A DNA stretch of 64,000 nt, taken from assembly GCA_036405175.1 (NCBI GenBank), contig DASWYC010000002.1, forward strand, positions 123,429-187,428, read 5' to 3'. Below are positions 638-53,665 of this stretch, piece after piece. Within the stretch, counting starts at the first letter, position 1. The number at the start of each line of letters is the position of its first letter. The translations under genes were made by a program, and so were the position numbers. The stretch is from Minisyncoccota bacterium (GTDB taxonomy: Bacteria > Patescibacteriota > Minisyncoccia > Phycocordibacterales > UBA1006). The notes beneath the pieces are model-generated. The model searched no databases. It was not told the origin of the DNA and worked only from the letters and a program-made list of their open reading frames with translations.

Positions 638-3166
638 ATGGCAACGCCGTTTAATCCCAATAAGATCTCAATCTTCGCCAAAACTAACTTTCGAGGAGAA
701 TCACGCCCTATTGGTATTAAGGCTATTGATCGTCTCCGTCACATGTATATCATCGGAAAATCAGGAGTAGGAAAATCTACCTTGATTGATAACATGGTGG
801 CTCAGGATATTATCAACGGTGACGGAATCGCTCTCCTTGATCCGCATGGGAGTTCGGCGGAAAAATCAATCAAATATGTTCCTGAACATCGTATTCAAGA
901 TGTGGTGTACTTTAATCCGGACGATGTTAATCATCCATTGGCATTTAATTTGATTGAAGACGTTCACCCAGATAAGCGTTCAAAAGTTGCAAACGGACTT
1001 CTTTCAATGTTGAAGAAAATTTGGCCTGATTCATTCTCGGCACGTATGGAGTATCTGACGATGAACATGTTGTTGCTCCTTTTGGAAAATCCTGGATCAA
1101 CTATTTTAGGTATTAACCGTGCATTCGCAGATAAAGAATTTTTGAACACACTCATTGCAAACATTAAAAGTCCGTCACTTCGTTCGGTATGGGTTGATGA
1201 GATTTTGAAGTACGATGAAAAGTTTTATCGTGAGGCAACCGCGCCGATTCAAAACAAAGTAGGACAGTTTATTTCTGATCCGATCATTCGTAATATTGTT
1301 GGGCAACCAAAATCATCATTTGATTTTAGTGGTATCATGAACAATCAGAAAATCTTCATTGCAAACCTTTCAAAAGGAAAGATTGATGAACAGAATGCGC
1401 GTTTGTTGGGAGGAATGCTGGTGACCAAAATTTATTTGGCAGCAATGGGGCGTGCAGATATTGCAGAAGAAGAACAGGCTAAATTGCCGCCATTCTATTT
1501 ATATGTAGATGAGTTTCAGAACTTTGCATCAGAATCATATGCAGACATTCTATCTGAGGCCCGTAAATACAAGTTGGGACTTACGATGGCACACCAGTAC
1601 GTTGCACAGCTTCCTGAGCCAGTGCGTGATGCGGTGTTTGGAAACGTGGGAACCATGGTGACATTTTTGACGGGAAACTTGGATGCAGAACTCTTTGAAA
1701 AGGAATTTTCTCCTATTTTCACTAAAGAAGATTTTACCAGCCTTGGATTTGCACAAATCTATTTGAAATTATTAATTGACGGAATTGCATCAGCGCCATT
1801 TTCTGGTCAGACTATTGCGCCATGGCCATATCCGGAGAATAAGTTTGTTCAGGAGGTACTAGAAAGTTCGCGCACCTTGTATGGACGTGACCGTACAGTG
1901 TTGGAGCAAGAAATTGCTGATTGGTTTAAGCCAATGCCAAATAAAAAAGATGCTGAGCATGAACGCTATATTCTTGAACGTCGTCTTGAGATTGAACAGC
2001 GTGGCGGTGTCTGGCGAGACAAAGAAACCGGACAAGCCATGCCAAAATTAAGTGAAGAAGAAATTGATGCGTATGAAAAAAAGCTCACTGATATTTTAGG
2101 TGGTGAGGTAACATTTAATCGTGAAAAATCTGCTGTGAGTGCCGTGCCTGCAGGAGATCCTCAAGCTAGTCAACAATCAGGATCTGCAACAACAGGATTG
2201 AGTGCATCAGCTATTGCGATTGCTCATCATTTGATTCCCAAAAAACAATCTGTTGAACCAGTGATTTCTGCACCCACTACCACTTCAGTACAGTCTCAAA
2301 CTGTAACAACTCAAACACAGCGCGTGACACATCAATATGTGGCGCCAATCGCTCAAAAAGTAGAAAAGCCTCCGCAACCCCAACGCCCTCAAGCGCATGA
2401 ACAGAAGCGTGAGAATATTCAACAAAATTCAGTAGCACCACAGAAACAGCATCAAAATAATTATCAGCAAAAACCTCAACCGCAAGTGCAGCAAAAACCA
2501 GCTCAACGAGATGAAGATCTGGTGGTAGATTTGCCTCCTAAAAAAGAACGAGTAAATGTTTCAAATGATCTTAAAAACTTATTATCCTCGATTTCAGATG
2601 ATCAGAATGATGATGTGGTATTCTCAGACATTGATACATCATTTGATGTGAAGCGGTCGTTTGCTAAACCTAAAGAACAAAAGATGACGAGCGTTCATAC
2701 TGAAAAAGAAGAAGGATCACATCGCAAGTTACAGGATATTTTGCATGAAAAAACGCCAGAAGAGGATGAGGGAATTAGTCTTTCTGATTTGTTGAATAAA
2801 TCAATCATGCATAGCGTGCAGAATAACACTAATAAAGCTCATGCGCGTGAAGCATTAAAGACCGATAAGGAATCTCTTTCTGCTACCTTGGCGCGTTTGG
2901 GTGTTCAGAAGAAGACTGCTGAAGAAAAAGTTGAGAATAAAAATTCAGACAGCGTTAGTATGGTTGAGAGTGTTGCAAAAGAAGAACCGGCGATGGCAGA
3001 GGTTCCGATGTCTCAAGTTGTTCGCGAAGAAAAGCCAGCTTCAAATGTGTCACATGCGAATAATGCCAAAAGCGAATATTATAAACAGTCTGAACCAGTA
3101 GTAGGATCACAGCCAGTTCCACGATATGTGCCAGATGACTTATTAAAAGCCATGCTGGAAGAATAG
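638..3166 (+). CDS. conjugative coupling-protein-like (TraG/VirD4/HerA-FtsK type) P-loop ATPase with ~330-aa Q/P/S-rich low-complexity C-terminal tail
   Basis: Walker A IIGKSGVGKST at residues ~39-49, ALLDPHG, Walker B-like FYLYVDEFQNF, LTMAHQY. No N-terminal TM. The C-terminal third is a Q/P-rich repetitive tract (QPQVQQKPAQ...). Confidence 0.5.
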   Translation: MATPFNPNKISIFAKTNFRGESRPIGIKAIDRLRHMYIIGKSGVGKSTLIDNMVAQDIINGDGIALLDPHGSSAEKSIKYVPEHRIQDVVYFNPDDVNHPLAFNLIEDVHPDKRSKVANGLLSMLKKIWPDSFSARMEYLTMNMLLLLLENPGSTILGINRAFADKEFLNTLIANIKSPSLRSVWVDEILKYDEKFYREATAPIQNKVGQFISDPIIRNIVGQPKSSFDFSGIMNNQKIFIANLSKGKIDEQNARLLGGMLVTKIYLAAMGRADIAEEEQAKLPPFYLYVDEFQNFASESYADILSEARKYKLGLTMAHQYVAQLPEPVRDAVFGNVGTMVTFLTGNLDAELFEKEFSPIFTKEDFTSLGFAQIYLKLLIDGIASAPFSGQTIAPWPYPENKFVQEVLESSRTLYGRDRTVLEQEIADWFKPMPNKKDAEHERYILERRLEIEQRGGVWRDKETGQAMPKLSEEEIDAYEKKLTDILGGEVTFNREKSAVSAVPAGDPQASQQSGSATTGLSASAIAIAHHLIPKKQSVEPVISAPTTTSVQSQTVTTQTQRVTHQYVAPIAQKVEKPPQPQRPQAHEQKRENIQQNSVAPQKQHQNNYQQKPQPQVQQKPAQRDEDLVVDLPPKKERVNVSNDLKNLLSSISDDQNDDVVFSDIDTSFDVKRSFAKPKEQKMTSVHTEKEEGSHRKLQDILHEKTPEEDEGISLSDLLNKSIMHSVQNNTNKAHAREALKTDKESLSATLARLGVQKKTAEEKVENKNSDSVSMVESVAKEEPAMAEVPMSQVVREEKPASNVSHANNAKSEYYKQSEPVVGSQPVPRYVPDDLLKAMLEE

Positions 3167-52707: not shown

Positions 52708-52730
52708 AAGCTTATTCGTTTGAATAAGCC
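52708..52730 (-). terminator. minus-strand terminator downstream of the tRNA cluster (gcttattc-gttt-gaataagc, T-run on minus strand)
   Basis: Hairpin preceded on the plus strand by aaaaaa (TTTTTT on minus). Confidence 0.55.
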
Positions 52731-52732
52731 TG

Positions 52733-52831
52733 TGGTCACCCCTGTAGGACTCGAACCCACATAAACAGAGCCAAAATCTGGTACTCTCGGAATAATTCTA
52801 ATTGTATTCCCACCAATTGAGCTAAGGGGTA
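52733..52831 (-). tRNA. tRNA-Gln (anticodon UUG) with a 23-nt hairpin insertion in the D-loop; CCA encoded
   Basis: Manual fold: U1 acceptor TACCCCT/AGGGGTG+A+CCA, D-stem GCTC/GAGT, anticodon stem CCAGA/TCTGT with loop TTTTGGC, T-arm GTGGG-TTCGAGT-CCTAC. The D-loop contains an extra hairpin GGAATA-CAATTAGAAT-TATTCC. Confidence 0.5.
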
Positions 52832-52869
52832 TTATGAGAAAATAAAAGCTAAACATTTGTTTAGCTTCG

Positions 52870-52943
52870 TGGACAGGAAGGGAATCGAACCCTCAACCGT
52901 ATCATTGCAAATGATATGCTCCAGCCAATTGAGCTACCCGCCC
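52870..52943 (-). tRNA. tRNA-Cys (anticodon GCA); CCA not encoded
   Basis: Acceptor GGGCGGG/CCTGTCC, D-arm GCTCAATTGGCTGGAGC, anticodon stem ATCAT/ATGAT with loop TTGCAAT, T-loop TTCGATT. Confidence 0.8.
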
Positions 52944-52954
52944 GTTCGTAAAAG

Positions 52955-53041
52955 GAAGCAATTTAAAGAGGGATCGGACCTCTCTGCTTAGACTGTGTAT
53001 ACTAGCCCAAGCATGACGCATTTTCGCGCCTCAAATTGCTC
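52955..53041 (-). repeat. degenerate fifth copy (E) of the GC-rich hairpin-closed element (closing helix agcaattt..gagg/cctc..aaattgct)
   Basis: RC interior ...gcttgggctagtatacacagtctaagcagagaggtccgatccctc resembles copy A ...cgactatgatggacagctgagcgtagggccgatagagccc. Retains a hairpin with a CCGAT-containing loop. Confidence 0.3.
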
Positions 53042-53263
53042 TATATTGTGTTGATAAAGTAGAATTTAGGTATTCAATATAACCTTTCTTCAAATAAAGT
53101 CAAGTGTTGAGTCTAAAATCCCAAAATACCAGTATAGGTTGCAATGAGAGAAATAATAATGAGTACTGCAATGATTCCAAAAGCAATACTAATTTTTTTC
53201 TTGTGTTTTGGGTGGAAAATAGAGCTCATAAATGTAGTACAATTGTACTATAAACCCTCGCGT

Positions 53264-53665
53264 ATGCAAAGCTATTCAACAGGTCTTCCTCAGCGTAAGC
53301 GCCTTAAAACCTATAATAAAAAAAAGATCTTTATAAGCTTTTTAATTACGTTGGTGGCGCTTATTGTAGTCATTCACTTTGGTATTAAGATGCGTCGCGC
53401 ATACCTCTTTTCAAAAGAAATTCAAGCAAAGAAAAATCTTACCCTAGAAGAACTTGAAACCAAAAGCAAGCAATTAGAAGATCAGCTGCAACTCTATGAA
53501 TCACCAGTAGGTCAAGAGCGCTTGTTGCGTGAACGCTATAGTATGGTCAAAGATGGTGAGCATGAAATTATTATTGAAGAAGGTCAAAAGAAATCTGATG
53601 ATAATAACAAAAAAGACGCTGGTGGATTATGGCAGCGCTTCGTACGTCTTTTTAAGAAAGACTAA
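53264..53665 (+). CDS. FtsB/DivIC-like septum formation initiator
   Basis: Single TM (ISFLITLVALIVVIHF) then coiled coil, and C-terminal SPVGQERLLRERYSMVKDGEHEIII matching the FtsB/DivIC conserved tail. Confidence 0.5.
   Translation: MQSYSTGLPQRKRLKTYNKKKIFISFLITLVALIVVIHFGIKMRRAYLFSKEIQAKKNLTLEELETKSKQLEDQLQLYESPVGQERLLRERYSMVKDGEHEIIIEEGQKKSDDNNKKDAGGLWQRFVRLFKKD

What the first reader, a model, noticed from the sequence alone, without database searches (positions are those of the whole stretch)
52733..52831. tRNA-Gln(UUG) gene with a 23-nt hairpin insertion in the D-loop
The minus-strand gene has a canonical acceptor stem with U1 (a Gln identity feature), encoded CCA, a normal T-arm (GTGGG-TTCGAGT-CCTAC) and an anticodon arm CCAGA-TTTTGGC-TCTGT (anticodon UUG). 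The D-stem GCTC/GAGT encloses a 32-nt 'loop': AATTGGT + [GGGAATACAATTAGAATTATTCC] + GA. The bracketed 23 nt fold as a perfect 6-bp hairpin (GGAATA/TATTCC). Removing it restores a standard 9-nt D-loop. D-loop insertions are essentially unknown in bacterial tRNAs. Bacterial introns are group I in the anticodon loop, and non-canonical intron positions are an archaeal feature. It is either a novel small intron or extra arm, a pseudogene, or an assembly artefact. It is the only Gln tRNA in the window.
Basis: seen in the sequence. Interest (0 to 1): 0.55.

Follow-up and report, generated by a model that had tools for sequence, protein, structure and literature searches.

The report
tRNA-Gln with extra D-loop hairpin
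A tiny-genome (CPR/Patescibacteria) bacterium carries an otherwise perfect glutamine tRNA gene with a 23-base hairpin in its D-loop, and similar hairpins recur at the same spot in phage and bacterial tRNAs that gene finders miss or mis-type.

Summary
On the minus strand at 52733-52831 lies a tRNA-Gln(UUG) gene with a 23-nt insert (52789-52811) between D-loop positions 20 and 21.

- **Detection:** ARAGORN and Rfam miss the gene. Deleting the insert gives a 76-nt tRNA-Gln scoring as well as the genome's other tRNAs.
- **Not an artefact:** the insert is identical in two independent single-run assemblies.
- **Host and locus:** the host is a Paceibacteria-type CPR bacterium. Its two closest relatives (LepA 95% and 88% identical) carry an uninterrupted tRNA-Gln(UUG) at the same locus.
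- **Need:** CAA/CAG still encode conserved Gln.
- **Not an intron of a known kind:** there is no credible bulge-helix-bulge motif, and 23 nt is too short for a group I intron.
- **Wider class:** pattern scans found about 30 distinct, otherwise high-scoring tRNAs (Lys, His, Thr, Arg, Gly, Glu and others) from phages and cellular contigs with hairpins at the same site. Many are GNRA-capped with covarying stems. I found no description of this class in the searchable literature.

My best reading (about 0.5) is a working tRNA-Gln that keeps the hairpin as an extra arm at a solvent-exposed site. The main rival (about 0.28) is a freshly disabled gene. The hairpin alone is no more stable than chance, and expression is untested.

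The parts
52733..52831 (-). tRNA-Gln(UUG) gene, 99 nt including the encoded CCA (52733-52735). Acceptor UACCCCU/AGGGGUG (U1.G72), discriminator A73.
   Evidence: Sequence. ARAGORN calls tRNA-Gln(ttg) once the insert is removed. All tertiary-interaction nucleotides are present: U8, A14, A15-U48, G18, G19, A21, U54, U55, C56, A58.
52789..52811 (-). 23-nt insert between D-loop positions 20 and 21. It forms a hairpin with stem GGAAUA/UAUUCC (6 bp) and a 10-nt loop CAAUUAGAAU.
   Evidence: Stem pairing probability is 0.84-0.96 in the full-length context. It adds about -3 kcal/mol to the cloverleaf without creating new competing folds.
52772..52774 (-). Anticodon UUG (positions 34-36). The loop is UUUUGGC with G37.
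   Evidence: The same UUUUGGY loop occurs in the tRNA-Gln of both relatives and in 35 viral tRNA-Gln genes.
52708..52731 (-). Intrinsic-terminator hairpin (AGGCUUAUUC AAAC GAAUAAGCUU) plus a U run, starting 1 nt after the CCA.
   Evidence: Equivalent terminators follow the tRNA-Gln of the relatives.
52845..52868 (-). Terminator-like or processing hairpin between tRNA-Ala and tRNA-Gln, ending 13 nt before the tRNA-Gln 5' end.
   Evidence: It is conserved in L081 after tRNA-Ile. It implies that tRNA-Gln is made by read-through or co-transcription.
52869..52943 (-). tRNA-Ala(UGC), the upstream gene of the same transcription unit.
52956..53041 (-). Structured leader RNA of unknown function between the promoter and tRNA-Ala. 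It folds as a four-way junction with a T-arm-like hairpin.
   Evidence: z = -4.05; same architecture in L081, z = -3.4; no Rfam family.
53076..53103 (-). Sigma-70-type promoter, TTGACT-16-TATATT (10 of 12 matches), for the leader/tRNA-Ala/tRNA-Gln unit.
   Evidence: Positionally conserved promoters occur in L081 and L084.

Best explanation
This is the cell's working tRNA-Gln(UUG) gene, and the 23 nt stay in the mature tRNA as a fifth, small arm.

Proposed mechanism:
1. The gene is transcribed from the promoter at 53076-53103 together with a structured leader and tRNA-Ala. Transcription ends at the terminator at 52708-52731.
2. The transcript folds into a normal cloverleaf and L-shape.
3. The hairpin projects from D-loop positions 20a/20b. 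This is the variable, solvent-exposed corner next to the G19-C56 elbow, where extra bases are known to flip outwards.
4. The acceptor, anticodon and T arms and all core tertiary contacts stay intact, so the tRNA can still be processed, charged and used on the ribosome.

What is shown: the gene is real, intact apart from the insert, sits at the conserved tRNA-Gln locus, and the insert sits at a recurrently used permissive site.

What is inferred: expression, retention of the hairpin, and function in translation.

Because bacterial GatCAB reads this very site and U1-A72, I further infer that this lineage charges tRNA-Gln directly with GlnRS, or has a GatB that tolerates the arm.
For: 1. **The body is not decayed.** ARAGORN scores 116.0 after excision, against 110-121 for bona fide tRNAs of the same genome and lineage. 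Every tertiary-interaction nucleotide is kept.
2. **It is the positional counterpart of the relatives' tRNA-Gln.** In the two closest relatives (LepA 95% and 88% identical), the tRNA-Gln(UUG) sits at the same place, convergent with the lepA 3' end. It shares the promoter context, terminator and G37 loop.
3. **The window has no other tRNA-Gln**. CAA/CAG occupy all 8 LepA columns that are >=90% Gln in 120 homologues, so Gln decoding is needed.
4. **The insert sits at the most permissive site.** It lies between position 20 and A21, one of very few places where extra nucleotides flip out of the fold (PMC2811023). A random insertion into a gene free of selection would hit this site only a few percent of the time (my estimate, by inference).
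5. **The same site carries hairpins in about 30 distinct, otherwise high-scoring tRNAs.** ARAGORN scores are 111-129 after excision. They come from phage arrays and from cellular contigs (Mur ligase, beta-galactosidase and glycine-cleavage neighbours). Inserts are 7-35 nt, many are GNRA-capped, and stems covary: GUC/GAC, GCC/GGC, GGA/UCC, CC/GG.
6. **It is reproducible.** The sequence is identical in three assemblies.
7. **The hairpin and the cloverleaf are energetically compatible**.
Against: - There are no expression data.
- No other species carries this particular insert. All 33 viral tRNA-Gln relatives that parsed have normal D loops. The other two, L311 and L344, were mis-parsed and only look normal by eye. 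So there is no evidence of selection on the hairpin itself.
- The hairpin is AU-rich with a floppy 10-nt loop and is no more stable than chance. This contrasts with the compact GNRA-capped helices of the phage examples.
- The locus shows tRNA turnover and holds a decayed tRNA-like element in the 95% relative.
- A terminator-like hairpin lies 13 nt upstream of the gene.
- The pair is U1.G72 and there is a large insert at 20a. Both should be bad for GatCAB if that pathway is used (PMC1635274; PMC2811023).
- A hairpin next to G19 could clash with partners that read the elbow, namely RNase P and the L1 stalk (my own knowledge, not tested here).
- Only 64 kb of the genome was seen, so a second tRNA-Gln elsewhere cannot be excluded.
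Confidence: 0.5

Rival explanations
1. It is a recently inactivated tRNA-Gln gene, that is, a young pseudogene. A 23-nt insertion or slippage event disrupted the D loop. A second tRNA-Gln elsewhere in the genome now does the work, and too little time has passed for further decay.
For: - Standard detectors reject it.
- The locus is a hotspot of tRNA gain and loss. Three close relatives carry three unrelated tRNA-Gln sequences, and L081 keeps a decayed tRNA-like remnant at the equivalent position.
- The insert is species-specific.
- The hairpin is not better than chance.
- A terminator-like hairpin lies just upstream.
Against: - There is no other lesion. Its score equals that of functional tRNAs, and the encoded CCA and its own terminator are kept.
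- The insert sits exactly at the one site where comparable hairpins are tolerated and conserved in many other tRNAs. This is unexpected for an unselected hit.
- No second tRNA-Gln is in the 64 kb.
- In the relatives this locus holds the only tRNA-Gln seen.
- These genomes are streamlined (my own knowledge).
Confidence: 0.28
2. The 23 nt are an intervening sequence removed after transcription. Either it is cut and re-ligated like archaeal and red-algal D-loop introns at 20/21, or it is cut without ligation. The latter would leave a nicked two-piece tRNA held together by its stems, as with fragmented rRNA.
For: - Introns at exactly 20/21 exist in A. pernix and in the red alga Chondrus crispus, and they are spliced (PMC3241643; bioRxiv 10.1101/2021.12.21.473619).
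- CPR rRNA genes very often carry insertions. 42% of 16S and 77% of 23S genes have insertions of >=100 nt (PMC9297842).
- One positionally compatible weak BHB-like motif can be drawn.
Against: - That motif rests on three G.U pairs and 2-bp flanking helices. It competes with the 6-bp hairpin, and such motifs are commoner in shuffled sequence (mean 4.5 versus 3 observed).
- The host is a bacterium, and no bacterial tRNA-splicing endonuclease is known (my own knowledge).
- No endonuclease or RtcB-type ligase is among the 19 window ORFs scanned.
- 23 nt is far too small for a self-splicing intron, and a 6-bp stem is too short for RNase III (my own knowledge).
- The 2-4-bp GNRA mini-helices at the same site in phage tRNAs look like structural modules, not excision substrates.
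Confidence: 0.12
3. It is a tRNA-derived RNA that has left translation, for example a regulatory or decoy tRNA-like RNA. The hairpin would serve as a new binding site, or as a shield against enzymes that read the D loop or elbow.
For: - Many hairpin-bearing phage tRNAs sit next to a normal isoacceptor. This suggests specialisation, such as escape from tRNA-targeting nucleases (D-loop variation in phage tRNAs is noted in PMC12475279).
- The insert lies at the GatB-tail contact site.
- A tRNA-shaped leader RNA of unknown function shares the operon.
Against: - The anticodon loop, acceptor end and CCA are fully canonical, which is unnecessary for a non-translational role.
- No partner or target is identified.
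- This is purely inferential.
Confidence: 0.08
4. It is an assembly or sequencing artefact.
For: None beyond the oddity itself.
Against: The locus is identical in the window and in two contigs assembled separately from different sequencing runs.
Confidence: 0.02

Closest known systems
Archaeal non-canonical BHB tRNA introns in the D loop (e.g. Aeropyrum pernix pre-tRNA-Thr2(UGU), cut by EndA)
   Same: A short insert in the D loop of an otherwise normal tRNA gene. Gene finders fail unless it is removed (PMC3241643).
   Different: Those introns carry a bulge-helix-bulge motif and need the archaeal splicing endonuclease plus a ligase. Here the host is bacterial, the BHB test is at chance level, and no such enzymes were seen.
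Red-algal nuclear tRNA introns between positions 20 and 21 (Chondrus crispus, Cyanidioschyzon merolae)
   Same: The same insertion point, 20/21. These genes were also mistaken for pseudogenes by tRNAscan-SE (bioRxiv 10.1101/2021.12.21.473619).
   Different: They are eukaryotic, shown to be spliced, and depend on the eukaryotic Sen endonuclease. Nothing comparable is known in bacteria.
Long variable arm of class II tRNAs (Leu, Ser, bacterial Tyr, Sec)
   Same: An extra stem-loop retained in the mature tRNA, projecting from the core without disturbing the L-shape. This is the best functional analogy for the 'extra arm' reading.
   Different: That arm lies between the anticodon and T arms (positions 44-48), not in the D loop. 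It is ancient, universal for those isotypes and used as an identity element.
Supernumerary D-loop nucleotides 20A/20B of bacterial tRNA-Glu and tRNA-Asp
   Same: Extra nucleotides at the very same site. They flip out of the D/T-loop junction and are tolerated by the translation machinery (PMC1635274; PMC2811023).
   Different: These are one or two bases, not a 23-nt hairpin. They mark tRNAs that GatCAB must reject, whereas here the extra material is on a tRNA-Gln.
Insertion sequences in CPR rRNA genes
   Same: The same phylum-level habit of carrying insertions in structural RNA genes (PMC9297842).
   Different: Those are >=100 nt up to kilobases, often introns with ORFs, and lie in rRNA. No tRNA counterpart is described there.
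D-loop-hairpin tRNAs found here (phage tRNA-Lys/His/Thr/Arg/Gly; cellular tRNA-Glu and 'AUU' tRNAs)
   Same: The same architecture, AxUUGG-N-[hairpin]-N-A21, in an otherwise high-scoring tRNA that ARAGORN misses or mis-types.
   Different: Most of those hairpins are GC-rich and GNRA-capped, and recur with compensatory changes across related genes. The window's is AU-rich, has a 10-nt loop, is seen in one species only, and is the only tRNA-Gln example found.

Membership tests
Bacterial elongator tRNA (Rfam RF00005, tRNA-Gln) | 7-bp acceptor stem, discriminator base and 3' CCA | tested here: met
   UACCCCU/AGGGGUG gives 7 of 7 pairs (U1.G72 is a wobble), with A73 and an encoded CCA.
Bacterial elongator tRNA (Rfam RF00005, tRNA-Gln) | T arm with G53-C61 and a UUCRANY loop, plus the core nucleotides U8, A14, G18, G19, A21 and R15-Y48 | tested here: met
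   The T arm is GUGGG-UUCGAGU-CCUAC. U8, A14, A15-U48, G18, G19 and A21 are all present.
Bacterial elongator tRNA (Rfam RF00005, tRNA-Gln) | 5-bp anticodon stem, 7-nt loop with U33, anticodon UUG | tested here: met
   CCAGA-UUUUGGC-UCUGU gives 4 pairs plus a C27.U43 mismatch. The window's tRNA-Phe has the same mismatch.
Bacterial elongator tRNA (Rfam RF00005, tRNA-Gln) | D loop of about 7-11 nt, and detection by standard models | tested here: not met
   The D loop is 32 nt. ARAGORN does not call it, Rfam is below gathering (21.2 versus 29 bits) and the hit is misaligned. Both criteria are met once 21-24 nt are removed.
BHB-type tRNA intron (archaeal / eukaryal) | Bulge-helix-bulge motif: two 3-nt bulges separated by a 4-bp helix at the exon-intron junctions | tested here: not met
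   The only positionally compatible motif uses three G.U pairs and 2-bp flanks and competes with the 6-bp hairpin. Shuffles give more such motifs (mean 4.5 versus 3 observed; 76% of shuffles reach 3).
BHB-type tRNA intron (archaeal / eukaryal) | Host encodes a tRNA-splicing endonuclease (EndA/Sen) and an RNA ligase | not testable with these tools
   Only 64 kb of the genome is available. None of the 19 ORFs scanned matches such enzymes. The host is bacterial.
Bacterial group I tRNA intron | Self-splicing intron of about 200 nt or more, located in the anticodon loop | tested here: not met
   The insert is 23 nt and lies in the D loop. No intron family is hit in Rfam.
tRNA pseudogene | Multiple disabling changes (broken stems, lost core nucleotides, abnormal anticodon loop) | tested here: not met
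   Apart from the insert, the gene scores 116.0, within the range of functional tRNAs. Contrast the L081 remnant, which no single deletion rescues.
tRNA pseudogene | A functional paralogue elsewhere in the genome | not testable with these tools
   There is none in the 64-kb window. The rest of the genome was not available.
GatCAB-substrate tRNA-Gln (indirect pathway) | U1-A72 first base pair and no supernumerary nucleotide at 20A/20B | tested here: not met
   The pair is U1.G72 and 23 extra nt lie at that site. The rule is from PMC1635274 and PMC2811023. The relatives also lack U1-A72: A1xA72 in L084 and C1-G72 in L081.
D-loop-hairpin tRNAs (class delineated here) | Hairpin inserted between G19(+1-3 nt) and A21 of a tRNA that is otherwise canonical and high-scoring after excision | tested here: met
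   The window matches the D-loop-specific pattern and behaves like about 30 other distinct sequences in the excision test.
D-loop-hairpin tRNAs (class delineated here) | Hairpin conserved with compensatory changes among related genes | tested here: not met
   This holds for the phage Lys and His groups and the 'AUU' group. The window's insert has no homologue in any other species.

The most novel reading that the evidence does not exclude
This is the sole tRNA-Gln of a free-standing bacterial genome, and it works in translation as a five-armed tRNA with a 23-nt arm at D-loop position 20a. It would be one cellular example of a wider, so far undescribed structural class of D-loop-arm tRNAs. That class is also used by phages, there as compact GNRA-capped helices on tRNA-Lys and tRNA-His, possibly to change which enzymes or nucleases can read the tRNA elbow and D loop. 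In this CPR lineage the arm may be tolerated because tRNA-Gln is charged without GatCAB, and perhaps because the L1 stalk is reduced.
Probability: 0.35. Interest if true: 0.75.

Novelty: new variant of a known kind. Interest (0 to 1): 0.6.

Why it matters
**tRNA architecture.** tRNA shape is among the most conserved features of life. The only accepted extra arm is the variable arm of class II tRNAs. A retained hairpin in the D loop would be a second way to add an arm.

**Possible biological role.** Its recurrence in phage tRNA-Lys and tRNA-His, which are targets of anticodon nucleases and other tRNA-directed defences, hints at a role in identity or immune evasion.

**Annotation.** Such genes are missed or mis-typed by ARAGORN. 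Examples here were called Leu(gag), Cys(gca), Ser(aga) or nothing. This can make a genome look as if it lacks an essential tRNA, or has an odd code.

**Gln decoding in CPR bacteria.** The case gives a concrete test of how Gln-tRNA is made, because the insert sits on the GatB recognition site.

**Engineering.** Position 20a may be a natural, tolerated site for inserting tags into tRNAs.

Tried and rejected
- **Exact 40-nt search in genome contigs:** no hit for the D arm plus insert.
- **LepA-based retrieval of 80 GTDB loci:** the best identities were only 50-64% and the synteny differs (tRNA-Gly/Arg/Phe downstream of lepA). These loci were uninformative for the tRNA-Gln itself.
- **First survey pattern (any 10-40-nt insertion between G19 and the T arm):** too unspecific. 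All viral hits were anticodon-loop or variable-region insertions. I replaced it with a D-loop-specific pattern.
- **False positives in the metagenome scan, set aside:** eukaryote-type intron tRNA-Tyr, tandem 5'-fragment duplications, and a class II tRNA (L276).
- **Class II reading of the window's gene** (hairpin as anticodon arm, real anticodon arm as variable arm): rejected. The hairpin has a 6-bp stem and a 10-nt loop, and no D stem would remain. ARAGORN proposes it only after artificial 2-nt deletions.
- **Mobile-element or repeat origin:** the insert is unique in the window and in all fetched loci except the same species. There is no target-site duplication.
- **Codon reassignment (CAR read as Glu because GatCAB is blocked):** rejected. 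All conserved Gln columns of LepA are CAA/CAG.
- **Search for GlnRS, GatCAB or an RNA ligase in the window:** none found among 19 ORFs.
- **Alignment of the upstream leader between the window and L081:** failed, because MAFFT misaligned them.
- **ARAGORN fed through stdin:** returns nothing. The 'undeleted' lines are void, and repeats the test properly.
- **Literature searches:** no description of D-loop hairpin insertions in bacterial or phage tRNAs. Subscription-only papers were not searchable.
Full report
**1. What is in the sequence**

Read on the minus strand from 52831 to 52733, the DNA spells a complete tRNA:
- Acceptor stem UACCCCU/AGGGGUG.
- U8 and A9.
- D stem GCUC/GAGU.
- Anticodon arm CCAGA-UUUUGGC-UCUGU, with anticodon UUG.
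- A 4-nt variable loop, UUAU.
- T arm GUGGG-UUCGAGU-CCUAC.
- Discriminator A73 and an encoded CCA.

The D loop is 32 nt: AAUUGGU, then a 23-nt insert GGGAAUACAAUUAGAAUUAUUCC (52789-52811), then GA.

ARAGORN and Rfam at gathering threshold find four other tRNAs in the window but not this one. A permissive Rfam scan gives only a misaligned 21.2-bit hit.

Deleting 21-24 nt at the insert makes ARAGORN call a 75-78-nt tRNA-Gln(ttg) at default settings. Its score is 116.0. The tRNA-Gln genes of the two closest relatives score 115.9 and 110.2. The window's tRNA-Ala, Phe, Glu and Leu score 114-121.

- The first pair is U1.G72, not U1-A72, and the discriminator is A.
- G10.U25 is a wobble.
- Pair 27:43 is a C.U mismatch, which the window's tRNA-Phe also has.

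**2. Is it more than chance, and is it real?**

The hairpin is a 6-bp stem (GGAAUA/UAUUCC) with a 10-nt loop. It folds at only -2.7 kcal/mol on its own. 9% of shuffles and 21% of random 23-mers from the window do as well, so the hairpin alone is unremarkable.

In context the stem forms with probability 0.84-0.96. It adds about 3 kcal/mol to the cloverleaf without creating new competing structures.

The insert is unique in the window.

The window's exact LepA protein is encoded on seven other contigs. Two of them, assembled separately from runs SRR11449188 and SRR11449184, were fetched and are 100% identical to the window over the whole intergenic locus, insert included. An assembly artefact is effectively excluded.

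**3. Genomic context**

The window is a chromosomal core region: MreB, release factor, LepA, LeuRS, CysRS, DnaB, FtsZ and FtsA. It comes from a Paceibacteria/Parcubacteria-type member of the Candidate Phyla Radiation.

The tRNA-Gln gene is convergent with the 3' end of lepA. It is the last gene of a small unit:
- A sigma-70-type promoter, TTGACT-16-TATATT, at 53076-53103.
- An approximately 86-nt strongly structured leader.
- tRNA-Ala(UGC) at 52869-52943.
- A terminator-like hairpin at 52845-52868.
- tRNA-Gln.
- A canonical intrinsic terminator at 52708-52731.

Because only 13 nt separate the upstream hairpin from the tRNA-Gln 5' end, and no promoter fits there, tRNA-Gln must be made by read-through. 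The same is true of the intact tRNA-Gln in the 95% relative.

**4. Relatives**

Species representatives in GTDB are distant (LepA <=64% identical) and have different genes downstream of lepA.

The large protein collection holds two close relatives:
- **P0001 (95% LepA identity; loci L081-L083).** It has promoter, leader, tRNA-Ile(GAU), hairpin, a degenerate tRNA-like remnant, tRNA-Gln(UUG) with no insert, and a terminator.
- **P0002 (88% LepA identity; loci L084-L085).** It has promoter, tRNA-Gln(UUG) with no insert, and a terminator.

The window's gene is therefore the positional counterpart of the relatives' tRNA-Gln, and the insert is specific to this species.

The three tRNA-Gln genes share the UUUUGGY anticodon loop but have unrelated acceptor stems. 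The upstream tRNA is Ala in one genome and Ile in the other. This locus turns tRNA genes over.

None of the three has the U1-A72 pair.

**5. Does the cell need this tRNA?**

In LepA, all eight alignment columns that are at least 90% Gln across 120 homologues are CAA or CAG in the window. Decoding is standard, and a tRNA-Gln reading CAA/CAG is required.

No other tRNA-like sequence exists in the 64 kb, even at permissive thresholds. The rest of the genome could not be examined.

**6. Known kinds of tRNA insert**

Bacterial tRNA introns are self-splicing group I introns of hundreds of nucleotides in the anticodon loop. This insert is 23 nt and lies in the D loop.

Introns at exactly positions 20/21 are known in Archaea. 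A. pernix pre-tRNA-Thr2 is cut by EndA at a bulge-helix-bulge motif (PMC3241643). They are also known in red algae (Chondrus crispus; bioRxiv 10.1101/2021.12.21.473619).

A formal search for two 3-nt bulges separated by a 4-bp helix found one positionally compatible motif. It rests on three G.U pairs and 2-bp flanks and competes with the 6-bp hairpin. Such motifs are commoner in shuffled sequence. No endonuclease or ligase candidate was seen in the window.

I therefore do not file the insert as an intron of any known type.

**7. A wider class**

I scanned public collections with a pattern that fixes the D-stem 3' strand at the normal distance from the T arm. Any extra nucleotides must then lie between G19 and A21. 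The pattern matches the window once and shuffles never.

With the AAUUGG D loop it gave 4 viral and 83 metagenome hits. With AGUUGG it gave 34 viral hits.

I first removed the false positives: intron-bearing tRNA-Tyr, tandem 5'-fragment duplications, and a class II tRNA. About 30 distinct sequences remain, with 7-of-7 (or 6-of-7) acceptor pairing, a normal anticodon arm and a hairpin at the same site as in the window:
- **tRNA-His(GUG):** GUC-GCAA-GAC, GCC-GAAA-GGC or GC-GAAA-GC.
- **tRNA-Lys(UUU):** many, with 2-4-bp stems capped by GAAA, GCAA, GUAA or GGAA. The stems are GC/GC, GGA/UCC, CC/GG, GGC/GCC and GUC/GAC.
- **tRNA-Thr(UGU).**
- **tRNA-Arg(UCU):** 22 nt between G19 and A21.
- **tRNA-Gly(CCC):** 35 nt.
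- **tRNA-Glu(UUC):** 28 nt.
- **A group with anticodon AUU:** 25-26 nt, with covarying 6-9-bp stems.

Excising the insert raises every one of them to ARAGORN scores of 111-129. Left intact, they are missed or mis-typed as Leu, Cys, Ser or Glu.

Many lie in dense phage-type tRNA arrays, often beside a normal isoacceptor. At least two lie in ordinary cellular contexts, next to Mur ligase and beta-galactosidase, or next to glycine-cleavage T protein.

Within tRNA-Gln itself the window is so far alone. Of 35 viral tRNA-Gln(UUG) genes with the same anticodon-loop and T-arm context, the 33 that parsed have normal D loops. The other two, L311 and L344, were mis-parsed and only look normal by eye.

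Reviews of non-canonical tRNAs and my other full-text searches do not describe this class.

**8. Mechanism**

Positions 20a/20b are the variable part of the D loop. In tRNA-Glu the extra base there flips out of the D/T-loop junction (PMC2811023). A hairpin rooted there can point into solvent while U8-A14-A21, G18-U55, G19-C56 and A15-U48 all form. All of these nucleotides are present here.

The covarying, GNRA-capped helices at this site in many otherwise excellent tRNAs argue that such arms are kept under selection. Stems of 2-4 bp look like structural modules rather than excision signals.

A random insertion into a gene free of selection would be unlikely to land on this one permissive site. 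Finding it there in an otherwise intact gene is what selection on a needed gene would leave behind. This is an inference, not a measurement.

I therefore favour a functional tRNA-Gln that retains the arm (about 0.5).

Bacterial GatCAB uses U1-A72 as a determinant and an extra 20A/20B base as an anti-determinant (PMC1635274; PMC2811023). This tRNA violates both, and its relatives also lack U1-A72. The lineage therefore probably charges tRNA-Gln with GlnRS. This is untested.

Some Parcubacteria lack uL1, and CPR rRNA genes often carry insertions (PMC9297842). A reduced L1 stalk might relax constraints near the tRNA elbow. This is speculation.

**9. Rivals**

- **Young pseudogene (about 0.28).** It is favoured by tRNA turnover at the locus, the decayed remnant in L081, the species-specific and statistically unremarkable hairpin, and the upstream terminator-like hairpin. 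It is disfavoured by the absence of any other lesion and by the insert's position.
- **Post-transcriptional removal (about 0.12).** It has precedents in other domains, but there is no motif or enzyme here.
- **A non-translational tRNA-derived RNA (about 0.08).**
- **An artefact (about 0.02).**

**10. Verdict**

The finding is real and unusual. As a single gene its function is unproven. As the entry point to a recurrent class of D-loop-arm tRNAs that annotation misses, it deserves follow-up.

I rate it a new variant of a known kind, namely tRNAs with an extra arm, at interest 0.6.

Noticed in passing
window 52956-53041 (-); L081:8745-8842 (-): An approximately 86-nt RNA lies between the promoter and tRNA-Ala. 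It folds into a tRNA-shaped four-way junction: an 11-bp closing stem, a 5-bp arm, a long arm, and a T-arm-like GAGG-UCCGAUC-CCUC hairpin. z = -4.05. The 95% relative has the same architecture despite diverged sequence (z = -3.4). No Rfam family matches, and its function is unknown.
   Followed up: partly
window 53113-53229 (-); L084:7956-8072 (-): An uncalled 38-aa small membrane protein (MSSIFHPKHKKKISIAFGIIAVLIIISLIATYTGILGF) ends 10 nt before the tRNA-operon promoter. It is conserved in the 88% relative. The overlapping 173-aa plus-strand ORF probably starts later, near 53264.
   Followed up: partly
L081:8540-8650 (-), also L083: A degenerate tRNA-like element lies between tRNA-Ile and tRNA-Gln in the 95% relative. 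It has T arm CUGAG-UUCGAUU-CUCAG and a 4-nt 'anticodon loop'. No single deletion rescues it, so it looks like a decayed tRNA(-Gln) gene.
   Followed up: partly
window 52733-52943 versus L081:8463-8738 and L084:7831-7907: Three close relatives (LepA 88-95% identical) carry different tRNA sets at the same locus: Ala + Gln, Ile + remnant + Gln, and Gln only. Their tRNA-Gln acceptor stems are unrelated. This is unusually fast tRNA gene turnover for a chromosomal core region.
   Followed up: partly
L013:565-653 (+); L015: about 911-999 (+): A second tRNA-Leu(CAA) lies directly after a normal one. Its D loop is about 19 nt with no hairpin. ARAGORN calls it only after at least 2 nt are deleted from the D loop. 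The sequence is identical in two different Paceibacteria MAGs.
   Followed up: partly
L227, L250, L295-L299, L304, L308, L309, L313, L314, L323, L326 (viral and metagenome contigs): Phage tRNA-Lys(UUU) genes carry a 2-4-bp, GNRA-capped mini-helix at D-loop position 20a with covarying stems. They often sit next to a normal tRNA-Lys in the same array. tRNA-Lys(UUU) is a known target of anticodon nucleases, so a role in evading defence is conceivable but untested.
   Followed up: partly
L236, L258:7421-7499 (-), L289: tRNA genes with anticodon AUU (A34, unusual in bacteria), an encoded CCA and a 6-9-bp D-loop hairpin (25-26 extra nt between G19 and A21) whose stems covary. L258 is a cellular contig. 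The gene there lies beside tRNA-Thr(GGU) and an IS1-like ORF.
   Followed up: no
L229, L238, L239, L282: A family of tRNA-like genes with a perfect 7-bp acceptor stem, a normal T arm, a 6-nt 'anticodon loop' AUUUUA and D-loop hairpins (23-39 extra nt between G19 and A21). They are not typeable as any standard tRNA.
   Followed up: no
L219:657-749 (-); L224:1327-1404 (-): tRNA-like genes with an encoded CCA carrying two hairpins in the D loop. L219 has 41 nt at -24 kcal/mol and L224 has 24 nt. Their anticodon arms do not parse canonically. An HNH endonuclease ORF lies nearby in L219.
   Followed up: no
L212, L222, L223, L225, L230, L234, L235, L281, L290 (soil metagenome contigs): tRNA-Asn(GUU) genes are preceded by a tandem duplicate of their own 5' fragment (acceptor 5' strand plus D-arm start). 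This recurs in several related contigs and mimics a D-loop insertion in pattern searches.
   Followed up: no
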